The notes under the pieces are model-generated. The model searched no databases, was not told where the DNA came from, and was given only the letters and a program-made list of their open reading frames with translations. A DNA stretch of 38,497 nucleotides from a virus (lineage: Duplodnaviria > Heunggongvirae > Uroviricota > Caudoviricetes): the IMG/VR virus record IMGVR_UViG_3300014533_000149. One strand, given 5' to 3'. Positions 1,974-33,533 of the stretch are shown piece by piece. Positions within the stretch are counted from its first letter, which is position 1. The number at the start of each line of letters is the position of its first letter. A program made the position numbers and the translations under genes.

Positions 1974-4580
1974 TTATTTCCTGCAAACTCCAGATGATGT
2001 TAATCCATCAAAAATAACCTGCACTCTGGCAATAACAACATCAACTCCAGAAGTCGTTTCACTTGCATAACCAAGTTTTATTTTAGATACAATATCCTGA
2101 GTAAGTTCAGATATTTCAGTTTCTGCAATGTTACCAGAGGCCATGTGATTATCGTATGCCATAGAATGAATTCCATTATTGACATCGATTGAACTAGTAT
2201 GTTTGTGAAAAATAGATGGGTTTACCTGAAACGAATTTGAACCGATAAGATCAGAAGATACTCCATTCATCACTGCAGTACAGCGTGGAATATTATTATC
2301 GGTTATTGTCATATGCAGACGGTTACCAGTTAACCCCTCACCAAGTGTGACATAATACGCCAATTCTCCACCTGCATATTGTTTCCCCTCAACAATAACA
2401 GTAATCCCTCTTAATTTCTGATTAGCTAGCAAAAACTTATTACTGTCTATATAGCATTTATTTGCGGAACCAAAAACAGCCCCTTCTAAAATATCTGATG
2501 AATAGGAATAAATAAGGTCACCTGAAACAAAGGAAAGAATATCAGATACGTTTCCTTTTTTAGATAAGTTGGGAGAATAGCTATTAACTATTTCATATTG
2601 TCCTGTGATAAAATCAAGGTAAACGCCATCAGTTTTCATCTCTTTAAAGAAAATGCTATTAAAGCATCCATCAAGAACCGGTGGATATATTCTAGAGCTT
2701 GCATAAGCTGTTGGGTGATTCTTATTATTACCACTACCAGGCGAATAAACATCTTCGTTAGTCATTGACTTTTTAAGCTTAACAGGAATCATCGGCTGCA
2801 TATCAATTTTGCAGTTCCCTGAACCACCGATGCGAGGATAAAATAAACCACCAAACCTTACAATATTACTACTGAATAGTATTTCGTTATCGTTAAGTGT
2901 TATCTCAACGAAGTTTCCAATAAGTTTAAATTCAACTGAAAACAAACCAAGTGGAGCAGATAATTTAACAATATTGCGCATAAAAACACCTACAGTCCCT
3001 GTTGATGCAGTATAGTGTGTGGTTTCAAAGGCAGAGCCTGTATATTTCAAGTTAATGAAATTATTATGGTATGAAGACAATTGGAATTGAATCCCAGAAC
3101 TAAGGATTTCAATATCTACAAATTGAATCCTTACGGAGTAAGAATATGATAAATCTTCATATTCATAAGGCAATGTAACATCTTTTGAAATAGTTGCCCT
3201 CACATAATTACCAGAAACCACATCAACCCCATCACGTACTGCATTAAAGTAACGATTAAAATCAATAAGCCCAGCGCCAACATACTGCGCATATGAACGA
3301 GTCCATCCTGCCATTGCGTTTCGTCCATTCTGAGCTTCTAAACTGCTAAATTCAGAGTCACTTGTGGTACTTGATGGGAGGATATTTGTACAAAAAACAA
3401 TTTCAGGCATTGAAGTAATATCATTCAGTTCAGCCATCAATTTAAAAAAAGTTTTCTGCGGGAAGTTACCAACATCCCAACCATCTCCGTCATTCATGCC
3501 AAAAGCAATAATAACAACATCAGGGTTAATATCACGAATGTAATCAATCCAGCGTCTGTTCGTGTCTGAATACCATGGGTACTGTGAGTTATAAGAAGTA
3601 ATTGCTGGTGTATCTTTTCCAAGGTCATAGTACCTCATTCCACCAATTGCTCTGTTAAATAAAGTAGAACTTGGGAATTTCTCTTGCAAAACTCTCTTAA
3701 GATGAGCGGCAAAAATGCTTGATCGATCCACTGTGCTTATATTATATGGGGCACTTAAGCTGTCACCAACTAACACTATTTTTGAGTTAGGCCTTGATAA
3801 TCTCTCAAGTGTTTTAGATGTGACTAAACTGCAGGAATTAATGAACTGAGTACTATTTAGCGTCTGTTCAAGTGTATCACCAAATCTGGTACCAACGTAT
3901 GATGATCCGTTGACACTTGCTAGCTTAAGGCATAAATCAGCAGTATCTGTAATTGAAAAAATAGGAACAGGACGTCCTAAACTGTCATACCCCTGAATTG
4001 AGTTTGCCCTAGAAGATGCTGATGCCATTTCGCTTACTATCTCAGGGAAGCGGAGTGTTTTAGATATGTTGCTGTTAATAACTCCTTTGATAGATGAGTC
4101 TGTATATTTCTTCGTGGAAGCGTCCTGAGGAAATAATGGATCATCAAGGTTACGAATACGATTGCCGAGTGCATCGTAGTAAGTGGCACTAAATGATGGT
4201 TTACGAAGAGCCAGCCGAGCCATGCTTTTGACTAACTGGATCAGCATCGTTAGCTTATCAAAAGCATCCTCATGCACTTCCGCAAAGAACTTACCCTGAT
4301 TGCGCAGATCAGTTTCCTGTGTAACCGGTAGCTCTCGTGATATAGAAATCTTATAGCCATTGGCCAACGCCTTCGACAATATTACATTTCCACCATTGTA
4401 TCCTCCGGCCCCGGTAACTATATAATCAGTATCAAGAGTCAGTACGGTGATATTTTCATGAATATCAACAACCTGCACAATCAAATCAGATTTATTGAAA
4501 ACCCTAAAGGCATACGGAAACGATGTCGTAACGCCGTTACCGGTGTATTCGTTGTGGTCAACTTCGGTTGAGACCGTCAT
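1974..4580 (-). CDS. Tailspike/tail fibre with T7 gp17-like N-terminal anchor and a central SGNH/GDSL esterase-like domain
   Basis: 868 aa; N-terminal ~110 aa resemble the T7 tail-fibre N-terminal domain; GDSLS motif (IVLVGDSLSAPYN) and GxND block (IIAFGMNDGDG); SD GGAGAT 7 nt upstream; visibly AT-rich after the N-terminal part. Confidence 0.75.
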   Translation of the reverse strand: MTVSTEVDHNEYTGNGVTTSFPYAFRVFNKSDLIVQVVDIHENITVLTLDTDYIVTGAGGYNGGNVILSKALANGYKISISRELPVTQETDLRNQGKFFAEVHEDAFDKLTMLIQLVKSMARLALRKPSFSATYYDALGNRIRNLDDPLFPQDASTKKYTDSSIKGVINSNISKTLRFPEIVSEMASASSRANSIQGYDSLGRPVPIFSITDTADLCLKLASVNGSSYVGTRFGDTLEQTLNSTQFINSCSLVTSKTLERLSRPNSKIVLVGDSLSAPYNISTVDRSSIFAAHLKRVLQEKFPSSTLFNRAIGGMRYYDLGKDTPAITSYNSQYPWYSDTNRRWIDYIRDINPDVVIIAFGMNDGDGWDVGNFPQKTFFKLMAELNDITSMPEIVFCTNILPSSTTSDSEFSSLEAQNGRNAMAGWTRSYAQYVGAGLIDFNRYFNAVRDGVDVVSGNYVRATISKDVTLPYEYEDLSYSYSVRIQFVDIEILSSGIQFQLSSYHNNFINLKYTGSAFETTHYTASTGTVGVFMRNIVKLSAPLGLFSVEFKLIGNFVEITLNDNEILFSSNIVRFGGLFYPRIGGSGNCKIDMQPMIPVKLKKSMTNEDVYSPGSGNNKNHPTAYASSRIYPPVLDGCFNSIFFKEMKTDGVYLDFITGQYEIVNSYSPNLSKKGNVSDILSFVSGDLIYSYSSDILEGAVFGSANKCYIDSNKFLLANQKLRGITVIVEGKQYAGGELAYYVTLGEGLTGNRLHMTITDNNIPRCTAVMNGVSSDLIGSNSFQVNPSIFHKHTSSIDVNNGIHSMAYDNHMASGNIAETEISELTQDIVSKIKLGYASETTSGVDVVIARVQVIFDGLTSSGVCRK

Positions 4581-4683
4581 GTTAAATCTCCAGATAGTCG
4601 CAGCACCCGTTGCGCCGCATATCTGGTTATTCTATTACCTGAAAAACCATATATGTATAGAAAGACTATAAATACCAATAGAT

Positions 4684-4700
4684 ATTACCTTTATGGTAAT
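4684..4700. promoter_or_regulatory. Operator-like 17-bp palindrome ATTACC-TTTAT-GGTAAT
   Basis: Perfect dyad; member of a 13-copy intergenic family. Confidence 0.5.
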
Positions 4701-4736
4701 TTGCAAAACGTGCTGGATAGCAAACAAATTATTTGA

Positions 4737-4756
4737 TACTGTATAAATATACAGTT
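4737..4756. promoter_or_regulatory. LexA (SOS) box
   Basis: TACTGTATAAATATACAGTT, a CTGT-N8-ACAG dyad with AT-rich spacer, about 18/20 match to the E. coli LexA consensus; ~20 bp upstream of the 4776 start codon. Confidence 0.65.
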
Positions 4757-4775
4757 ATTGCATGGAGAAGATAAG

Positions 4776-5033
4776 ATGCAGCGGTATCACTATCCACTGG
4801 AAGACGGATTTACCGAAAGGATTCACACGCCGGGAGGCGTCAGGTCACTGGTGGAGGGATCGCACTTGATGAAATTACTCCGGGATCTCGATAAGGATGG
4901 ATTTAATGTCGATGGCCCACTTGCCGAACTGACTGCACTGATTAACTACGTCACCAGCTCACAGATGTCTATGCGGGATCTGCAAACACATCTCGACTAT
5001 TGTGCCGAACAATTACGAAAACAAACCAGATAA
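4776..5033 (+). CDS. Small SOS-box-associated antirepressor-like protein (standalone Ant C-terminal-like domain)
   Basis: 85 aa from ATG 4776 with SD GGAGAAG; ~45% identical by eye to the C-terminal ~65 aa of the Bro-N protein at 5348..6040; LexA box immediately upstream. Confidence 0.55.
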   Translation: MQRYHYPLEDGFTERIHTPGGVRSLVEGSHLMKLLRDLDKDGFNVDGPLAELTALINYVTSSQMSMRDLQTHLDYCAEQLRKQTR

Positions 5034-5063
5034 GGTTTGCAATTACCAAGTGGAGTGCTTATA

Positions 5064-5080
5064 TTTACCTTTGAGGTAAA
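5064..5080. promoter_or_regulatory. Operator-like palindrome TTTACC-TTTGA-GGTAAA
   Basis: Perfect dyad, flanked by inverted repeat GGAGTGC (5052-5058) / GCACTCC (5091-5097). Confidence 0.45.
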
Positions 5081-5163
5081 TTTACATCGCACTCCTCTTG
5101 TGCCATAGTAATCGGGCACTGGCAAAATCCAGTGCCGGGATTGGTCTCCCGGATTACTACAGA

Positions 5164-5193
5164 GGCACATATGCCGCATAAGCGGTTTTTTTT
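5164..5193 (+). terminator. Candidate rho-independent terminator
   Basis: Short GC hairpins (GGCA-CATA-TGCC, CCGC-ATAA-GCGG) followed by an 8-T run; stems are short. Confidence 0.35.
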
Positions 5194-5347
5194 ATGTGTA
5201 AAGCGCACCTATTCTATGGTGGGCTGTGTGGGGGCACCGAAAGGTGCGCCGGGTTCCTTTGTAGCCGGTAAGACCAACTCTGCACAGTTCACCACCATCT
5301 GATTGGTCTCAGCGGTGGTGATTAACCTAACTACAAAGGTGATCGCC

Positions 5348-6040
5348 ATGAATACCAAACCTTCCATCTTTTCCTTTGAGTCATCCTGCCAGATCCGTAT
5401 GTTCATGATTGACGGAGAACCTTGGTTTGTCACCAAAGATGTGTGCAATGCTTTGAATATTGATGTTACACAAGCGAGAAAACTTGATAAAAAAGGCTGG
5501 AACAAAAAGGGGCTGTATTCAATACAGACCCCTGGTGGAATACAAGAACTATCCATCGTTTCAGAATCAGGTCTCTACATCCTTATTCTGCGTTGCAAAG
5601 AGGCAATGACTGAGGGAACGAGAGCATTCAGATTTCTTGAATGGGTTACAGGCGAGGTTCTTCCTCAGATCCGCCGCACCGGAAGTTACATTAAAAACTC
5701 GCTACCGCAGGAAGAACGCATAAAGATGGTTGCCGACCAGGTAGCCAACGCCACGGCGTCAGCAGTAATGCAGGCGATGAAGATAGAGAACAAAACCTAC
5801 AGTGCTCCACTGAAGCCCGGCTACCGTAGCCTGATTCATTCTCCGTCTGGTGTTCTCGGCCTGACGGAGAACTCACTGCTGATGAATCTGCTGAACCAGT
5901 TACAGGACGACGGGCACGACGTATCGGGCGCGGCGGCGGAGCTGACCACCATGTTCTGCTACATCGTTGGTGTGAGCAAATGCCTGCGTGATATCCAGAC
6001 GCACGCGGAGTACATCAACGACAAGGCTGGGTTCTTCTGA
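5348..6040 (+). CDS. Antirepressor (Ant)-like protein with Bro-N N-terminal domain
   Basis: ATG 5348 with SD AAAGGTGA; N-terminal region matches the Bro-N fold pattern (FMIDGEPWFVTKDVCNAL...); C-terminal ~65 aa paralogous to the 4776..5033 product. Confidence 0.65.
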   Translation: MNTKPSIFSFESSCQIRMFMIDGEPWFVTKDVCNALNIDVTQARKLDKKGWNKKGLYSIQTPGGIQELSIVSESGLYILILRCKEAMTEGTRAFRFLEWVTGEVLPQIRRTGSYIKNSLPQEERIKMVADQVANATASAVMQAMKIENKTYSAPLKPGYRSLIHSPSGVLGLTENSLLMNLLNQLQDDGHDVSGAAAELTTMFCYIVGVSKCLRDIQTHAEYINDKAGFF

Positions 6041-6048
6041 CGGGCGGC

Positions 6049-6070
6049 GGCACAGGGATGTGCCTTTAAA
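6049..6070 (+). terminator. Weak terminator-like hairpin after the Ant-like gene
   Basis: GGCACA-GGGA-TGTGCC followed by TTTAAATAAT. Confidence 0.3.
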
Positions 6071-6111
6071 TAATCCTGTACGATTGCAGACCGGGGGGTG
6101 AATAGAGTACT

Positions 6112-6128
6112 ATTACCTTACGGGTGAT
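6112..6128. promoter_or_regulatory. Operator-like imperfect palindrome ATTACC-TTACG-GGTGAT
   Basis: One half-site perfect, the other one mismatch. Confidence 0.35.
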
Positions 6129-6215
6129 CCATAGCGATTAGGCACCGATACAGGAGGAGCCCACATGAGAAAATTTGACGAGTACGAAGGCGTTTAACAT
6201 TCGGATAGTTTAATG

Positions 6216-6239
6216 ACGGGGCCATCAGGCCCCGTTTTC
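6216..6239 (+). terminator. Hairpin terminator/attenuator
   Basis: ACGGGGCC-ATCA-GGCCCCGT followed by TTTTCA; lies between a 10-codon ORF and the 6257 gene. Confidence 0.4.
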
Positions 6240-6256
6240 ATGTCTGGAGACAGTTT

Positions 6257-6796
6257 GTGTTAAGTGAAGAAATGCAATTTGCCATGGCTGTGGCTCAAAT
6301 CGTAAGTGCAGTCGCGGTTTCGCTTGGCTTGTTCATAGCTATCGCTACTATTATTTATAATGTAAATACAGCGAGAAAAGTACACACTTCAGTATTCCTT
6401 GGTGAAAGCAGGTTTGATGTAGATTATAAGAAAGGCCTATCTACTATGCGCCGCATTCACGAGTCGAACAAATCATTCCGCTCTTATATGTATCCAAGCA
6501 ATGGGCAGGCTGATCTTACGGATGAAGAAAAGACAGAGAAGAGAGAAATAATTTACTGTCTAGGTTTCTACGAACGCATGGCTGTGAGCGTGAAGCGGAA
6601 AACTTATGATGAGACCATGATTAAGGAAGTATTTTACAGCTCCGTTGTAAATAACTATCAGATTGCGCTACCTCTTATACAAGCCATTAGAGAAAAAGAA
6701 AACATAAACACATATTTTAAAGAATATGAATGGTTGGCCACACGATGGAAGGATTGCCCATTGAAGGATAAATCCCCGTGGTACAAGTTTTGGTAA
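6257..6796 (+). CDS. Membrane-anchored hypothetical protein (moron; candidate superinfection-exclusion/defence function)
   Basis: 179 aa; N-terminal TM helix then a charged soluble domain; AT-rich; SD GGAGA 6 nt before GTG 6257 (ATG 6272 is an alternative start). Confidence 0.5.
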   Translation: MLSEEMQFAMAVAQIVSAVAVSLGLFIAIATIIYNVNTARKVHTSVFLGESRFDVDYKKGLSTMRRIHESNKSFRSYMYPSNGQADLTDEEKTEKREIIYCLGFYERMAVSVKRKTYDETMIKEVFYSSVVNNYQIALPLIQAIREKENINTYFKEYEWLATRWKDCPLKDKSPWYKFW

Positions 6797-19610: not shown

Positions 19611-19661
19611 CTTCTTTCTCCATTAGTGGGCCTGTTGCGGCCCACAGGTTAATAACAGGCG

Positions 19662-23980: not shown

Positions 23981-24057
23981 GTGGCATTAGCTCAGTTGGA
24001 CAGAGCAACCGCCTTCTAAGCGGTTGGTCGCAGGTTCGAATCCTGCATGCCACGCCA
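23981..24057 (+). tRNA. tRNA-Arg (anticodon UCU)
   Basis: 77 nt; cloverleaf by hand: acceptor GTGGCAT/ATGCCAC, D-stem GCTC/GAGC, anticodon stem ACCGC/GCGGT with loop CTTCTAA, T-arm GCAGG-TTCGAAT-CCTGC, 3' CCA; differs from E. coli argU in stems as recalled. Confidence 0.85.
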
Positions 24058-32684: not shown

Positions 32685-32713
32685 ATAATAAATATTCACC
32701 CATAAGGTAACAA
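32685..32713 (-). promoter_or_regulatory. Candidate PR-like promoter for the cro-like gene
   Basis: Minus strand: -35 TTGTTA (32713..32708), 17-bp spacer, -10 TATTAT (32690..32685); overlapped by the 32695 operator. Confidence 0.35.
32695..32711. promoter_or_regulatory. Switch-region operator-like site TTCACC-CATAA-GGTAAC
   Basis: Imperfect dyad; overlaps the candidate -35. Confidence 0.45.
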
Positions 32714-32725
32714 AAATCAAGGATA

Positions 32726-32742
32726 GTTACCTATGGGGTGCA
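32726..32742. promoter_or_regulatory. Switch-region operator-like site GTTACC-TATGG-GGTGCA
   Basis: Imperfect dyad, abuts the next site. Confidence 0.35.
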
Positions 32743-32759
32743 TTTACCTGTTGGGTAAT
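32743..32759. promoter_or_regulatory. Switch-region operator-like site TTTACC-TGTTG-GGTAAT
   Basis: Near-perfect dyad ~55 bp upstream of the repressor-like start. Confidence 0.5.
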
Positions 32760-32813: not shown

Positions 32814-33398
32814 ATGAAAAGTATCCAGGACGTCCGCAGGCAAAATCTCAACGACTTGATCGACCGTGAATTCAATGGTGTTCAGACGCGGATGGCAGAA
32901 AAACTTGGAACTCAGGCAAATCTGGTAAACCGCTGGGCTCTTGGCAAGAAGGTTATCGGCGACCAGGTTGCGCGAAAAATTGAAGCTGCCGCCAATAAAC
33001 CCCGTAACTGGCTTGATATCGATCGCTCGCTTTCTCAGGAAGGTTTTCAGCCTGTCGGCCCAAGCGACATTGGTCAGCTGGCGGCTCACAACCTGGAACG
33101 CTGGATGAGCGAAAGCCGCGACCTTTCAACACAGGGAAAACTTCACCGCGCATCCGGCGTCGCCCAGGTGACAATCAGCCGCCTGTTAAACAATGAGGTC
33201 AGCGTTTCCATTTCCACCCTGGAGAATGTTGCATCCGCATTCGGGCGTCACGGCTATGAATTACTGATTCACCCGCACGACCCTGCGACCATCAACTATG
33301 ACCGCTCGCGCTACGCATTGTTACCCGAAACCGAGAAAGCAAAGATCGAAAGTTACATTGAATTTGTCATCAACCAGAACGAAAAAAACAAACAATAA
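32814..33398 (+). CDS. Tandem-HTH repressor-like protein, no peptidase S24 autocleavage domain seen (putative prophage repressor)
   Basis: 194 aa with two Cro/C1-type HTH-like segments (about aa 5-65 and 100-165); weak SD; divergent from the cro-like gene; own terminator downstream. Confidence 0.6.
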   Translation: MKSIQDVRRQNLNDLIDREFNGVQTRMAEKLGTQANLVNRWALGKKVIGDQVARKIEAAANKPRNWLDIDRSLSQEGFQPVGPSDIGQLAAHNLERWMSESRDLSTQGKLHRASGVAQVTISRLLNNEVSVSISTLENVASAFGRHGYELLIHPHDPATINYDRSRYALLPETEKAKIESYIEFVINQNEKNKQ

Positions 33399-33454: not shown

Positions 33455-33471
33455 ATTACCTTAAGGGTAAT
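33455..33471. promoter_or_regulatory. Operator-like palindrome ATTACC-TTAAG-GGTAAT
   Basis: Perfect dyad ~19 bp upstream of the candidate -35. Confidence 0.5.
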
Positions 33472-33489
33472 TTTTTTAACTCATATCTA

Positions 33490-33518
33490 TTGACACCAAA
33501 CCAAATACGCATAATCAT
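33490..33518 (+). promoter_or_regulatory. Candidate PL-like early promoter
   Basis: -35 TTGACA (33490..33495), 17-bp spacer, weak -10 AATCAT (33513..33518) running into the next operator; same layout as the 30365..30393 promoter. Confidence 0.4.
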
Positions 33519-33533
33519 TACCTCAACGGTAAC
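33517..33533. promoter_or_regulatory. Operator-like palindrome ATTACC-TCAAC-GGTAAC
   Basis: Overlaps the candidate -10/+1 and supplies the SD (GAGGTAA) for the 33552 ORF. Confidence 0.45.

What the first reader, a model, noticed from the sequence alone, without database searches (positions are those of the whole stretch)
4776..6040. The small SOS-associated protein is a free-standing copy of the Bro-N antirepressor C-terminal domain
Residues ~20-85 of the 85-aa protein (RIHTPGGVRSLVEGSHLMKLLRDLDKDGFNVDGPLAELTALINYVTSSQMSMRDLQTHLDY) align with the C-terminal ~65 aa of the 230-aa Bro-N protein (LIHSPSGVLGLTENSLLMNLLNQLQDDGHDVSGAAAELTTMFCYIVGVSKCLRDIQTHAEY), about 45% identity by eye. Two tandem genes sharing this module suggest it is the repressor-binding part, present once fused to a Bro-N domain and once alone under SOS control.
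Basis: seen in the sequence. Interest (0 to 1): 0.6.

Follow-up and report, generated by a model that had tools for sequence, protein, structure and literature searches.

The report
Two antirepressors sharing one repressor-binding module
In this E. coli prophage the small SOS-controlled gene is a close relative of a structurally solved antirepressor (Ant of Salmonella phage SPC32H), and the same 80-residue module forms the tail of the neighbouring Bro-N protein, whose gene is controlled by antisense RNAs rather than by DNA damage.

Summary
The 85-aa protein (4776-5033) and residues 149-222 of the 230-aa Bro-N protein (5348-6040) align at 43% identity over 74 residues. BLASTP gives E 3e-16, the Smith-Waterman score is 163 against 26±4 for shuffles, and hhalign gives 99.6% probability.

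The small protein is 87% identical to SPC32H Ant (PDB 5D50, Rep-Ant complex). It sits behind a perfect LexA box, and the window also encodes the matching Rep (32814-33398). So the shared module is a known repressor-binding antirepressor fold.

- The 314-nt spacer holds an isrK-like RNA and a P1-type C4 antisense RNA. The C4 loop is complementary to the Bro-N gene's ribosome-binding site, and this pairing covaries in 13 of 13 related loci.
- The two genes are old paralogues, not a recent duplication. The RNA-plus-fusion cassette is accessory and is absent from SPC32H and epsilon15.
- The same C-terminal module is also joined to AntA, P22_AR_N, Rha and ORF6N domains, always at the extreme C-terminus and always in phages of this type.

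Binding of Rep by the fused domain is inferred, not shown. A published over-expression test of a near-identical orthologue (phage ZX5 ORF4) supports a pro-lytic role. This is a modestly novel variant of known systems.

The parts
4685..4699 (.). Palindrome TTACCTTTATGGTAA, a candidate Rep operator about 40 bp upstream of the LexA box
   Evidence: TTACC-N5-GGTAA occurs 14 times (at most 1 mismatch) in the window against 0.73 expected. The site is conserved at this position in SPC32H, phiV10 and Klebsiella phages.
4739..4754 (.). LexA (SOS) box CTGTATAAATATACAG in the ant promoter region
   Evidence: Exact CTGT-N8-ACAG with an all-A/T spacer. A box with 0-1 mismatch lies at the same place upstream of every small ant gene examined.
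4776..5033 (+). ant: stand-alone 85-aa antirepressor, orthologue of SPC32H Ant
   Evidence: 5d50_E at E 3.5e-46. 87.1% identity to SPC32H ant by tblastn. PHROG 450.
5037..5065 (+). Sigma-70-like promoter (TTGCAA-17-TATATT) of the second transcription unit
   Evidence: Promoter scan. Hexamers that look promoter-like by my reading are kept at the same place in 8 related loci in alignment A3. Prediction only.
5065..5079 (.). Palindrome TTACCTTTGAGGTAA, a candidate Rep operator abutting the -10 hexamer
   Evidence: Half-sites are invariant and the spacer is variable in 8 loci.
5116..5192 (+). isrK-like RNA. It overlaps a c4-a1b1 target motif (5103-5155) and ends in an intrinsic terminator (5173-5194). 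The loop of hairpin 2 carries UUGGUCU (5141-5147).
   Evidence: Rfam RF01394 at 74.7 bits (gathering score 50) and RF03163 at 39.9 bits, below its gathering score of 46.7. Terminator.
5212..5299 (+). C4 antisense RNA. The hairpin loop UCCUUUGUAG is at 5255-5264 and the single-stranded AAGACCAAC at 5270-5278.
   Evidence: Rfam RF01695 at 78.6 bits (gathering score 45). Fold.
5301..5342 (+). Leader of the fused gene carrying the two C4 target sites: UUGGUCU (5303-5309) and CUACAAAGG (5331-5339), the latter overlapping the Shine-Dalgarno sequence AAAGGUGA (5335-5342)
   Evidence: CUACAAAGG is the only 9-nt exact complement of the C4 loop in the whole window. Duplex energies are -12.0 and -9.2 kcal/mol. 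Pairing is kept through four alleles of each segment in 13/13 loci.
5348..6040 (+). Gene for the 230-aa Bro-N::Ant-like antirepressor
   Evidence: ORF. 99% identical 230-aa proteins named 'BRO-like protein' and many full-length homologues of 66-87% identity. PHROG 130, 'anti-repressor Ant'.
5393..5665 (+). Bro-N domain (residues 16-106)
   Evidence: Pfam PF02498, 51.4 bits, E 1.8e-13.
5792..6022 (+). SPC32H-Ant-like C-terminal domain (residues 149-225)
   Evidence: 5d50_E at E 1.6e-13. hhalign 99.6%. The AF2 model of the domain (pLDDT 77.6) has 5d50_G/H as its only credible PDB neighbours (TM 0.59-0.76). omega 0.03-0.24.
6113..6127 (.). Third operator-like palindrome (TTACCTTACGGGTGA, 1 mismatch) downstream of the fused gene
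   Evidence: An exact version sits at the same relative place in L012.
6218..6239 (+). Terminator-like hairpin GGGGCC-ATCA-GGCCCC followed by GTTTTC, the probable end of the second transcription unit
   Evidence: Read directly from the sequence. The scan did not call it because there are only four T.
32814..33398 (+). rep: 194-aa repressor, homologue of SPC32H Rep and the presumed target of both antirepressors
   Evidence: 5d50_A 'Repressor' at E 4e-42 over residues 1-190, and 5d4z_A (C-terminal domain) at E 4e-20. 41.8% identity to SPC32H rep.
32696..32758 (.). Pair of TTACC-N5-GGTAA palindromes between rep and the divergent 76-aa ORF (an OR-like position)
   Evidence: SPC32H has the equivalent cluster beside its rep gene.
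33456..33532 (.). Pair of TTACC-N5-GGTAA palindromes just downstream of rep (an OL-like position)

Best explanation
The region 4685-6239 is a two-part anti-immunity locus of a phiV10/epsilon15-like (Uetakevirus-type) E. coli prophage.

Part 1 is the known SOS trigger. LexA sits on the box at 4739-4754. After DNA damage the 85-aa Ant is made. As shown for its SPC32H orthologue, an Ant tetramer binds the repressor Rep and takes the DNA-bound Rep tetramer apart.

Part 2 is an accessory cassette of the P1 immI / Gifsy-1 isrK type. A promoter is overlapped by a Rep-operator-like palindrome. It drives an isrK-like leader that mostly terminates, then a C4 antisense RNA, then the 230-aa protein whose C-terminal 80 residues are a paralogue of Ant.

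C4 pairs with the ribosome-binding site of that gene and keeps it untranslated in the lysogen. The isrK-like RNA carries the same target sequence and can act as a decoy for C4.

The C-terminal module is the Rep-directed working part. The N-terminal Bro-N domain is exchangeable.

I infer that the large antirepressor acts when the phage infects a cell, or after Rep has first been lifted. It would push or lock the switch towards lysis independently of SOS. The C4 allele would set a second, RNA-based immunity specificity.

Shown here: the homologies, the LexA box, both RNAs, the covarying RNA pairing, the domain swapping and the purifying selection.

Taken from the literature: Ant-Rep binding (SPC32H), the pro-lytic effect of the ZX5 orthologue, the C4 mechanism (P1/P7) and IsrK activation (Gifsy-1).

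Inferred: that the fused domain binds this Rep, that the palindrome is the Rep operator, and the division of labour between the two antirepressors.
For: - Small protein = SPC32H Ant: E 3.5e-46 and 87% identity.
- The Rep homologue is present. The SPC32H mechanism is summarised in PMC9638917 and PMC7380047.
- The LexA box is present and conserved upstream of every small ant gene examined.
- The fused C-terminus is homologous to Ant.
- isrK and C4 both score above their Rfam gathering thresholds. They lie upstream of the fused gene in all 12 other loci examined, whatever the N-terminal domain.
- The C4 loop is complementary to the SD sequence, and the C4 single strand is complementary to two target sites. 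Four alleles of each are matched in 13/13 loci.
- In the phage database, all 19 records with the fused domain also carry Rep and the small Ant.
- C-terminal module: omega 0.03-0.24. It is 97-100% identical between phages whose Bro-N domains are only 64% identical. It is 90-98% identical when attached to AntA or P22_AR_N.
- TTACC-N5-GGTAA is enriched about 20-fold and flanks rep both here and in SPC32H.
- Over-expression of ZX5 ORF4 (C-terminus 98.9% identical) cut prophage titre from 1e9 to 1e6 and rep mRNA by 75% (PMC9782041).
- P1 Ant is controlled by C1 and by C4 RNA (PMC8201110). IsrK activates translation of the downstream antirepressor in trans (PMC4825925).
Against: - There are no binding data for the fused domain. 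At 43% identity its specificity could differ from that of Ant.
- The cassette is dispensable. Phage PAS61 has a 100% identical Rep but no fused gene. The phiV10 reference sequence carries a frameshifted copy.
- Co-occurrence with Rep is confounded by shared ancestry, because all carriers are one phage type.
- The operator assignment rests on enrichment and position only.
- The palindrome at 4685-4699 lies too far upstream to occlude an ant promoter that overlaps the LexA box.
- The full-length AF2 model was poor (pLDDT 57.7, C-terminus below 50). The domain model's match to 5D50 has a weak E-value (0.012), and its input alignment contained small-Ant sequences.
- The ZX5 experiment is coarse over-expression without a binding assay.
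Confidence: 0.7

Rival explanations
1. The shared module in the fused protein serves only as an oligomerisation (tetramerisation) domain inherited from Ant. It no longer contacts Rep, and the Bro-N domain, a predicted DNA-binding fold, carries the activity.
For: SPC32H Ant is a tetramer (PMC9638917), so part of the conserved surface must be self-contacts. The positions invariant across both subfamilies include many hydrophobic residues. Bro-N alone is widespread in proteins annotated as antirepressors (939 phage records).
Against: The N-terminal domain is the variable part. Bro-N alleles are 64% identical, and AntA, P22_AR_N, Rha and ORF6N replace Bro-N, while the C-terminal module is held at 90-100% in phages sharing one Rep. 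A generic oligomerisation tag would not be expected only in Rep-bearing phages. Conserved polar residues (H17, S29, E51, T71, H72 in small-Ant numbering) persist in both subfamilies.
Confidence: 0.12
2. The fused antirepressor is aimed mainly at the Rep proteins of other resident prophages of this family. It would act as an anti-immunity or cross-induction weapon on superinfection, rather than on the phage's own Rep.
For: The cassette is accessory. C4 alleles differ between phages with 100% identical Rep, namely the window against phiV10. That is the P1/P7 heteroimmunity pattern. Antirepressor cross-talk between prophages is documented in Salmonella (PMC7380047). Matches to this locus (at least part of 4581-6250) occur in 543 of 5426 complete E. 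coli genomes, with up to 3 places per genome.
Against: Identity of the fused C-terminus tracks the resident Rep across phage groups: Rep 100/78/45% against fused domain 98/79/53%. ZX5 ORF4 lowered lysogeny of ZX5 itself. This reading overlaps with the best explanation rather than excluding it.
Confidence: 0.15
3. The similarity is a recent local tandem duplication, or it arises by chance or from biased composition, and has no functional meaning.
For: The two genes are adjacent and on the same strand.
Against: The score lies 31 sd above shuffles and hhalign gives E 2e-24. Third-codon-position identity is only 27%. GC is 55% in the fused C-terminus against 48% in ant. SPC32H and epsilon15 have ant but no fused gene. 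The pair recurs in loci where the small Ant is only 45-59% identical to the window's. omega is well below 1.
Confidence: 0.01

Closest known systems
Ant of Salmonella phage SPC32H (Kim & Ryu 2013 J Virol; Kim et al. 2016 PNAS; PDB 5D50). The primary papers are not held in the library, so this rests on the PDB hit, on citing papers and on my own knowledge.
   Same: The window's 85-aa protein is an orthologue at 87% identity. It occupies the same slot next to the tailspike gene, has a LexA box in its promoter, and has a Rep homologue in the same genome. The fused C-terminal domain has the same fold at about 40% identity.
   Different: The fused copy is a domain of a 230-aa protein rather than a free 86-aa protein. 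It has no LexA box and is controlled by isrK and C4 RNAs. SPC32H itself lacks this second gene.
P1/P7 immI operon (c4 antisense RNA - icd - ant1/2; Citron & Schuster 1990; summarised in PMC8201110)
   Same: A C4 RNA is encoded upstream of, and co-oriented with, an antirepressor gene. Its loop and single strand are complementary to sites in the leader and the RBS. Target copies lie upstream of C4 (a1/b1). An operator for the main repressor sits at the promoter. Allelic C4/target pairs occur among phages sharing the same repressor.
   Different: There is no icd-like coupled ORF, so C4 targets the SD of the antirepressor gene itself. The antirepressor protein is Bro-N plus an SPC32H-Ant domain. 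The host phage is an integrating podovirus. A LexA-controlled second antirepressor lies alongside.
Gifsy-1 isrK-orf45-anrP locus (Hershko-Shalev et al. 2016, PMC4825925)
   Same: An isrK RNA with its own terminator, read-through into a structured interval, then an antirepressor-like gene. Translation of that gene is off by default.
   Different: In the window the interval is a full-score C4 RNA. No Gifsy record appears among the 32 phage-database records that match the Ant-like domain, but I did not confirm that a Gifsy-1 record is in that collection. The role of an orf45-like ORF (5171-5302) is unresolved here.
ORF4 'anti-repressor' of E. coli phage vB_EcoP_ZX5 (Li et al. 2022, PMC9782041)
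   Same: It is the same gene family in the same slot. Its C-terminal 90 aa are 98.9% identical to the window's and its Rep is 100% identical. It was shown to reduce lysogeny when over-expressed.
   Different: Its Bro-N domain is a different allele (64% identity), and so is its C4/target allele. The paper notes only the Bro-N domain. It does not mention the small ant, LexA, SPC32H or the RNAs.
Modular Bro-N / KilA-N-type phage regulators with shuffled C-terminal domains (Iyer, Koonin & Aravind 2002, from my own knowledge) and P22 immI (arc-sar-ant)
   Same: An N-terminal Bro-N, AntA, Rha, ORF6N or P22_AR_N domain is combined with a variable C-terminal domain. TL-2011b carries a P22_AR_N::Ant-like protein behind an Arc-like gene and a sar RNA.
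   Different: The C-terminal partner here has no Pfam or NCBIfam model and is not KilA-C/ANT. It is the SPC32H Ant fold.

Membership tests
SPC32H-type Ant (PDB 5D50 chains E-H) | Significant sequence similarity to SPC32H Ant over the whole ~86-aa chain | tested here: met
   Small protein: E 3.5e-46, residues 2-84 against 3-85. Fused protein residues 149-225: E 1.6e-13. hhalign 99.6%.
SPC32H-type Ant (PDB 5D50 chains E-H) | Stand-alone small protein of about 86 aa | tested here: met
   Met for 4776-5033 (85 aa). Not met for the fused copy, which is the C-terminal domain of a 230-aa protein.
SPC32H-type Ant (PDB 5D50 chains E-H) | LexA box in the promoter (SOS control) | tested here: met
   CTGTATAAATATACAG at 4739-4754, conserved across relatives. 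The fused gene has no such box. The only other two pattern matches in the window are far away, at 19632 and 24173.
SPC32H-type Ant (PDB 5D50 chains E-H) | Cognate SPC32H-type Rep encoded by the same phage | tested here: met
   32814-33398 against 5d50_A, E 4e-42. Rep and small Ant co-occur in the phage database: 37 and 35 records respectively.
SPC32H-type Ant (PDB 5D50 chains E-H) | Forms a tetramer, binds Rep and releases it from DNA | not testable with these tools
   Only single-chain prediction is available. The domain model's best PDB neighbour is 5d50_G/H.
Bro-N domain proteins (Pfam PF02498) | N-terminal Bro-N domain above the gathering score | tested here: met
   51.4 bits against 25.6, residues 16-106.
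Bro-N / KilA-C (ANT, PF03374) type antirepressors | C-terminal KilA-C/ANT or another catalogued C-terminal domain | tested here: not met
   No Pfam or NCBIfam hit in residues 107-230 at E <= 1 and <= 0.01 respectively.
P1/P7 immI-type antirepressor operon | C4 antisense RNA upstream of, and co-oriented with, the antirepressor gene | tested here: met
   RF01695 at 78.6 bits (gathering score 45) at 5212-5299. The same is seen in 12 related loci.
P1/P7 immI-type antirepressor operon | C4 segments complementary to leader and RBS targets, plus an upstream a1/b1 copy | tested here: met
   CUACAAAGG 5331-5339 over the SD. UUGGUCU at 5303-5309 and 5141-5147. Covariation in 13/13 loci.
P1/P7 immI-type antirepressor operon | icd-like ORF between c4 and ant, translationally coupled to ant | tested here: not met
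   Only 48 nt separate C4 from the ATG, and the C4 target is the SD of the antirepressor gene itself.
P1/P7 immI-type antirepressor operon | Promoter controlled by the phage's main repressor | tested here: inconclusive
   A palindrome identical in type to those flanking rep abuts the -10 hexamer. Binding was not tested.
Gifsy-1 isrK-orf45-anrP | isrK RNA with terminator immediately upstream of an antirepressor-like gene | tested here: met
   RF01394 at 74.7 bits (gathering score 50) at 5116-5192. Terminator at 5173-5194.
Gifsy-1 isrK-orf45-anrP | Translated small ORF (orf45) that couples IsrK action to antirepressor translation | tested here: inconclusive
   An ORF of 43 codons from the ATG at 5171 (5171-5302; 56 aa from the GTG at 5132) overlaps C4. 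The 56-aa version hits Pfam Phage_ASH at threshold: 26.4 against 26. Nothing here shows it is translated.

The most novel reading that the evidence does not exclude
The SPC32H-Ant fold is a portable, repressor-specific 'warhead'. Uetakevirus-type phages have plugged it behind at least five unrelated N-terminal domains (Bro-N, AntA, P22_AR_N, Rha, ORF6N) and under three different control circuits: LexA, C4/IsrK RNAs, and Arc/sar.

If so, in this whole class of 'Bro/Ant/Rha' phage proteins the C-terminal domain sets which repressor is hit, and the N-terminal domain has a generic role.

In addition, C4 alleles among phages with identical Rep would create a P1/P7-style second immunity layer. A superinfecting relative could then induce a resident prophage.
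Probability: 0.4. Interest if true: 0.55.

Novelty: new variant of a known kind. Interest (0 to 1): 0.4.

Why it matters
It gives a structure-backed functional assignment to two sets of genes. One is the unannotated C-terminal domain of 'BRO-like' proteins found in many enterobacterial prophages. The other is the small ant gene, which RefSeq still labels 'hypothetical protein'. Matches to at least part of this locus occur in 543 of 5426 complete E. coli genomes.

It shows one phage family running two, and in TL-2011b three, antirepressors. All are built on the same repressor-directed module but are wired to different signals: DNA damage, antisense RNA, and an Arc-like repressor.

It offers a clean natural experiment on what Bro-N, AntA and Rha N-terminal domains add, because the module works alone in SPC32H.

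It predicts testable RNA-based heteroimmunity between E. coli prophages that share an identical repressor. Related phages with this locus include phiV10, which infects O157:H7, and TL-2011b, which came from an EHEC outbreak strain.

Tried and rejected
- The primary SPC32H papers (J Virol 2013, PNAS 2016) and the epsilon15 genome paper could not be read. I therefore cannot exclude that Bro-N fusions were already noted there. Residue-level Ant-Rep contacts could not be compared.
- The AF2 model of the full 230-aa protein was poor (pLDDT 57.7, C-terminus below 50) and was not used for fold search.
- My first operator pattern had the wrong spacing (N7) and showed no enrichment. N5 is correct.
- The word-indexed search with the C-terminal domain returned only 24 proteins and missed the full-length family. 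The exhaustive profile search and the full-length query were needed.
- Pfam and NCBIfam have no model for the shared module. The weak DUF724 hit (17 bits against a cutoff of 38) was dismissed.
- The TTG start at 5303 for the Bro-N gene was rejected because it overlaps the 3' flank of C4 and is not conserved.
- Recent tandem duplication was rejected because synonymous sites are saturated and the two segments differ in GC.
- Literature searches for '5D50' and for Bro-N+LexA+antirepressor found nothing describing this fusion.
Full report
**Context.** The window is a phiV10/epsilon15-like (Uetakevirus-type) temperate podovirus of E. coli. Megablast of 4581-6300 finds phiV10, TL-2011b, ZX5, EC.W1-9 and relatives at 92-98% identity. 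The stretch 4581-6250 is 100% identical to prophages in E. coli strains TUM10828 and UPEC69. It has a match in 543 of 5426 complete E. coli genomes, 139 of them covering at least 80% of the query. The finding lies between the tailspike gene (1974-4580, minus strand) and virion genes (from 7576, minus strand). This is the same slot that holds ant in Salmonella phage SPC32H.

**The observation.** Both ORFs are as described: 4776-5033 (85 aa) and 5348-6040 (230 aa).
- BLASTP aligns residues 2-75 of the small protein with residues 149-222 of the large one: 32/74 identities, no gaps, E 3e-16.
- The Smith-Waterman score is 163. 2000 shuffles gave 26.3±4.3 with a maximum of 61.
- A profile of 12 small-protein homologues against a profile of 20 full-length Bro-N homologues gives hhalign probability 99.6%, E 2e-24, over 79 columns.
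- Pfam finds Bro-N at residues 16-106 and nothing in the C-terminal half. NCBIfam finds nothing for either protein.

The only correction is that the quoted stretch is residues 15-75 of the small protein, not ~20-85.

**What the small protein is.** It matches PDB chain 5d50_E, 'Anti-repressor protein', at E 3.5e-46 and is 87.1% identical to the annotated ant of SPC32H. 5D50 is the Rep-Ant complex of that phage. According to citing papers, SPC32H Rep is not cleaved on SOS induction. Instead a LexA-controlled Ant is made. It is a tetramer that binds two Rep dimers and breaks the DNA-binding Rep tetramer (PMC7380047; PMC9638917; the primary papers were not available).

The window carries the rest of that system. 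A Rep homologue lies at 32814-33398 (5d50_A, E 4e-42). A perfect LexA box, CTGTATAAATATACAG, lies at 4739-4754. A LexA-like box with 0-1 mismatch sits at the same place upstream of every small ant gene I examined, including relatives whose Ant is only 45-59% identical. This half of the finding is a known system.

**What the large protein's tail is.** Residues 149-225 hit 5d50_E on their own at E 1.6e-13.
- An AF2 model of the isolated domain (pLDDT 77.6) has Ant chains 5d50_G/H as its only credible PDB neighbours: TM 0.59-0.76, Foldseek probability 1.00. All other hits have E above 5. The E-value is weak (0.012), and the input alignment included small-Ant sequences, so this is corroboration rather than independent proof.
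- The full-length model was poor and was not used.
- The domain is under purifying selection, with NG86 omega of 0.03-0.24 against seven orthologues.

**The two copies are old paralogues.** At the DNA level the aligned segments are 47% identical, and only 27% at third codon positions. GC is 55% in the fused C-terminus, 45% in the Bro-N part and 48% in ant. SPC32H, SPN1S and epsilon15 have ant followed directly by the membrane-protein gene, with no second copy.

**Distribution.** In the phage database:

| Feature | Records |
|---|---|
| Rep homologue | 37 |
| Small Ant | 35 |
| Fused domain | 19 |

All 19 records with the fused domain also have Rep and the small Ant. Phage PAS61 has a 100% identical Rep but no fused gene. 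The phiV10 reference has a frameshifted one, annotated as 194 aa plus 29 aa. The fused gene is therefore accessory.

**Domain shuffling around a constant module.** An exhaustive profile search of 1.84 billion representatives finds only 64 at E<1e-3. The family is small and, in every case I traced, enterobacterial. Members are either free proteins of 82-96 aa or carry the domain at the extreme C-terminus.

The N-terminal partners found are:
- Bro-N, AntA, Phage_pRha and ORF6N.
- P22_AR_N, in TL-2011b gp42.

Within phages sharing one Rep, the C-terminal module is nearly constant while the N-terminus changes:
- Against phiV10, TL-2011b and ZX5, the Bro-N domain is 64% identical (dS about 1.5), but the linker plus C-terminus is 97-100% identical (dS 0.05-0.19).
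- The AntA fusion in L012 has a 98% identical C-terminus.
- TL-2011b gp42 is 90% identical over the last 89 residues.

All traced fusions sit in the same slot beside a small ant gene. This pattern is what one expects if the C-terminal module is matched to the resident repressor and the N-terminal domain is generic.

Rfam finds two RNAs on the plus strand:
- An isrK RNA at 5116-5192 (74.7 bits, gathering score 50). It overlaps a c4-a1b1 target motif and ends in an intrinsic terminator at 5173-5194.
- A C4 antisense RNA at 5212-5299 (78.6 bits, gathering score 45).

Both RNAs precede the fused gene in all 12 other loci examined, whichever N-terminal domain is present. They are absent from SPC32H.

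The C4 hairpin loop UCCUUUGUAG (5255-5264) is complementary to CUACAAAGG (5331-5339). That is the only 9-nt complement in the whole window, and it overlaps the Shine-Dalgarno sequence of the fused gene. The single-stranded AGACCAA (5271-5277) is complementary to UUGGUCU in the second isrK hairpin loop (5141-5147) and again just after C4 (5303-5309).

Across 13 loci there are four alleles of the single-stranded segment: AGACCAA, ACGCCAA, GUCUCAA and GUGCAAA. Each is matched exactly at both targets. At least four alleles of the loop/SD pair are also kept complementary, including a matching 1-nt deletion and G-U wobbles.

This is the P1/P7 immI logic, in which C4 RNA blocks antirepressor synthesis (PMC8201110). 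Here C4 targets the antirepressor's own RBS and there is no icd gene.

In Gifsy-1, the short IsrK RNA acts in trans on the read-through isrK-orf45-anrP transcript to switch on translation of the antirepressor-like AnrP (PMC4825925). Because the isrK-like RNA here carries a copy of the C4 target, a decoy role against C4 is the natural reading. That is an inference.

**Operators.** The palindrome TTACC-N5-GGTAA occurs 14 times (at most 1 mismatch) against 0.73 expected. Pairs flank rep at 32696/32744 and 33456/33518. In SPC32H the same motif occurs 18 times against 0.62 expected, and again clusters on both sides of rep. It is therefore very probably the Rep operator, though this is an inference.

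One copy abuts the -10 hexamer of the promoter-like site ahead of isrK (5065-5079). Its half-sites are invariant and its spacer variable in 8 loci. Another lies about 40 bp upstream of the LexA box (4685-4699, conserved). A third lies after the fused gene (6113-6127). The fused gene thus appears to be silenced twice in a lysogen: by Rep at the promoter and by C4 at the RBS.

**Experimental support from a relative.** Phage ZX5 has a 100% identical Rep, and its ORF4 has a C-terminal 90 aa that is 98.9% identical to the window's. Over-expressing ORF4 during infection lowered prophage titre from 1e9 to 1e6 and rep mRNA by 75% (PMC9782041). That paper noted only the Bro-N domain. It does not mention SPC32H, LexA, the small ant or the RNAs.

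**Mechanism I commit to (confidence about 0.7).** The small Ant is the SOS trigger. The Bro-N::Ant-like protein is a second, SOS-independent antirepressor directed at the same type of Rep through its C-terminal module. It is made only when Rep is absent or lifted and C4 is outcompeted, which means on infection or after initial derepression. The C4 allele adds an RNA-based immunity specificity.

**Rivals.**
- The module is only an oligomerisation tag (about 0.12).
- The main targets are the Reps of other resident prophages (about 0.15). This overlaps with the main model.
- Chance similarity or recent duplication is excluded.

**Novelty and score.** Each component is known: SPC32H Ant, the Bro-N domain, C4, isrK and the LexA box. 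I found no description that the C-terminal domain of these widespread 'BRO-like' proteins is an SPC32H-Ant paralogue, that it is shuffled among five N-terminal domains, or that Uetakevirus-type phages pair a LexA-controlled Ant with a C4-controlled one. The caveat is that the primary SPC32H papers could not be read. I rate it a new variant of a known kind, with interest 0.4.

Noticed in passing
window 5103-5299: The spacer between the two antirepressor genes holds an isrK-like RNA (5116-5192, with terminator) and a C4 antisense RNA (5212-5299). Both score above their Rfam gathering thresholds. The RefSeq features listed under identical E. coli prophage matches name only two proteins and no RNA gene.
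   Followed up: yes
window 1660, 4685, 5065, 6113, 23645, 24259, 27282, 27300, 30351, 30413, 32696, 32744, 33456, 33518: The palindrome TTACC-N5-GGTAA occurs 14 times against 0.73 expected, often in pairs 18-62 bp apart, and flanks rep. The same motif is enriched in SPC32H (18 against 0.62). It is probably the Rep operator set, which implies Rep controls several promoters outside the immunity region. The site at 4685-4699 is too far upstream of the LexA box to occlude that promoter, and its role is unexplained.
   Followed up: partly
window 5132-5302: An ORF of 56 aa from a GTG (43 codons from the ATG at 5171) overlaps the C4 RNA and hits Pfam Phage_ASH exactly at threshold (26.4 against 26 bits). 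ZX5 annotates an 'ash family protein' on its C4 RNA. Either that Pfam family partly consists of translated C4 RNA genes, or this is the counterpart of Gifsy-1 orf45.
   Followed up: partly
L010 (TL-2011b, NC_019445.1 31060-32244) 1561-2745: TL-2011b carries a third antirepressor with the same C-terminal module (90% identical to the window's). It is fused to P22_AR_N and preceded by an Arc-like repressor gene and a sar antisense RNA (RF00262). One phage therefore has three control circuits for one module. HEMP4 also shows three places.
   Followed up: partly
L001 (phiV10, NC_007804.2) 3266-3945: The phiV10 reference annotates the Bro-N gene as 194 aa plus a separate 29-aa ORF. tblastn shows the Ant-like domain split into two pieces, so there is a frameshift, either real or a sequencing error. 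The same is seen in O157 typing phages 9 and 10.
   Followed up: partly
L013 6001-6960: The called 319-aa Rha-fusion gene starts inside the isrK and C4 RNAs (6003-6189). Its true start is probably the Met near residue 80, which would give about 240 aa. This is an over-extended gene call.
   Followed up: no
window 4776-5033 and 32814-33398 versus SPC32H: The small Ant is 87% identical between this phage and SPC32H, while the Reps are only 42% identical. Ant is far more conserved than its target. This hints at cross-reactivity or at strong constraints from tetramer formation.
   Followed up: no
window 6257-6796: Just after the fused gene's terminator lies a 179-aa protein with a hydrophobic N-terminal stretch (by eye) and a DUF4760 domain (107.5 bits). 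Related phages carry different cargo in this position, such as a YafO-family toxin in TL-2011b. It looks like a variable moron slot.
   Followed up: partly
window 23981-24054: A tRNA gene lies on the plus strand (Rfam 73.3 bits), near two of the operator-like palindromes (23645, 24259). SPC32H has a tRNA-Arg in the equivalent position.
   Followed up: no
window 1974-4580: The 868-aa tailspike has an epsilon15/phiV10-like N-terminus. Its close homologue in L012 carries GDSL-lipase/esterase Pfam hits, which suggests an O-antigen-deacetylating rather than glycanase tailspike.
   Followed up: no
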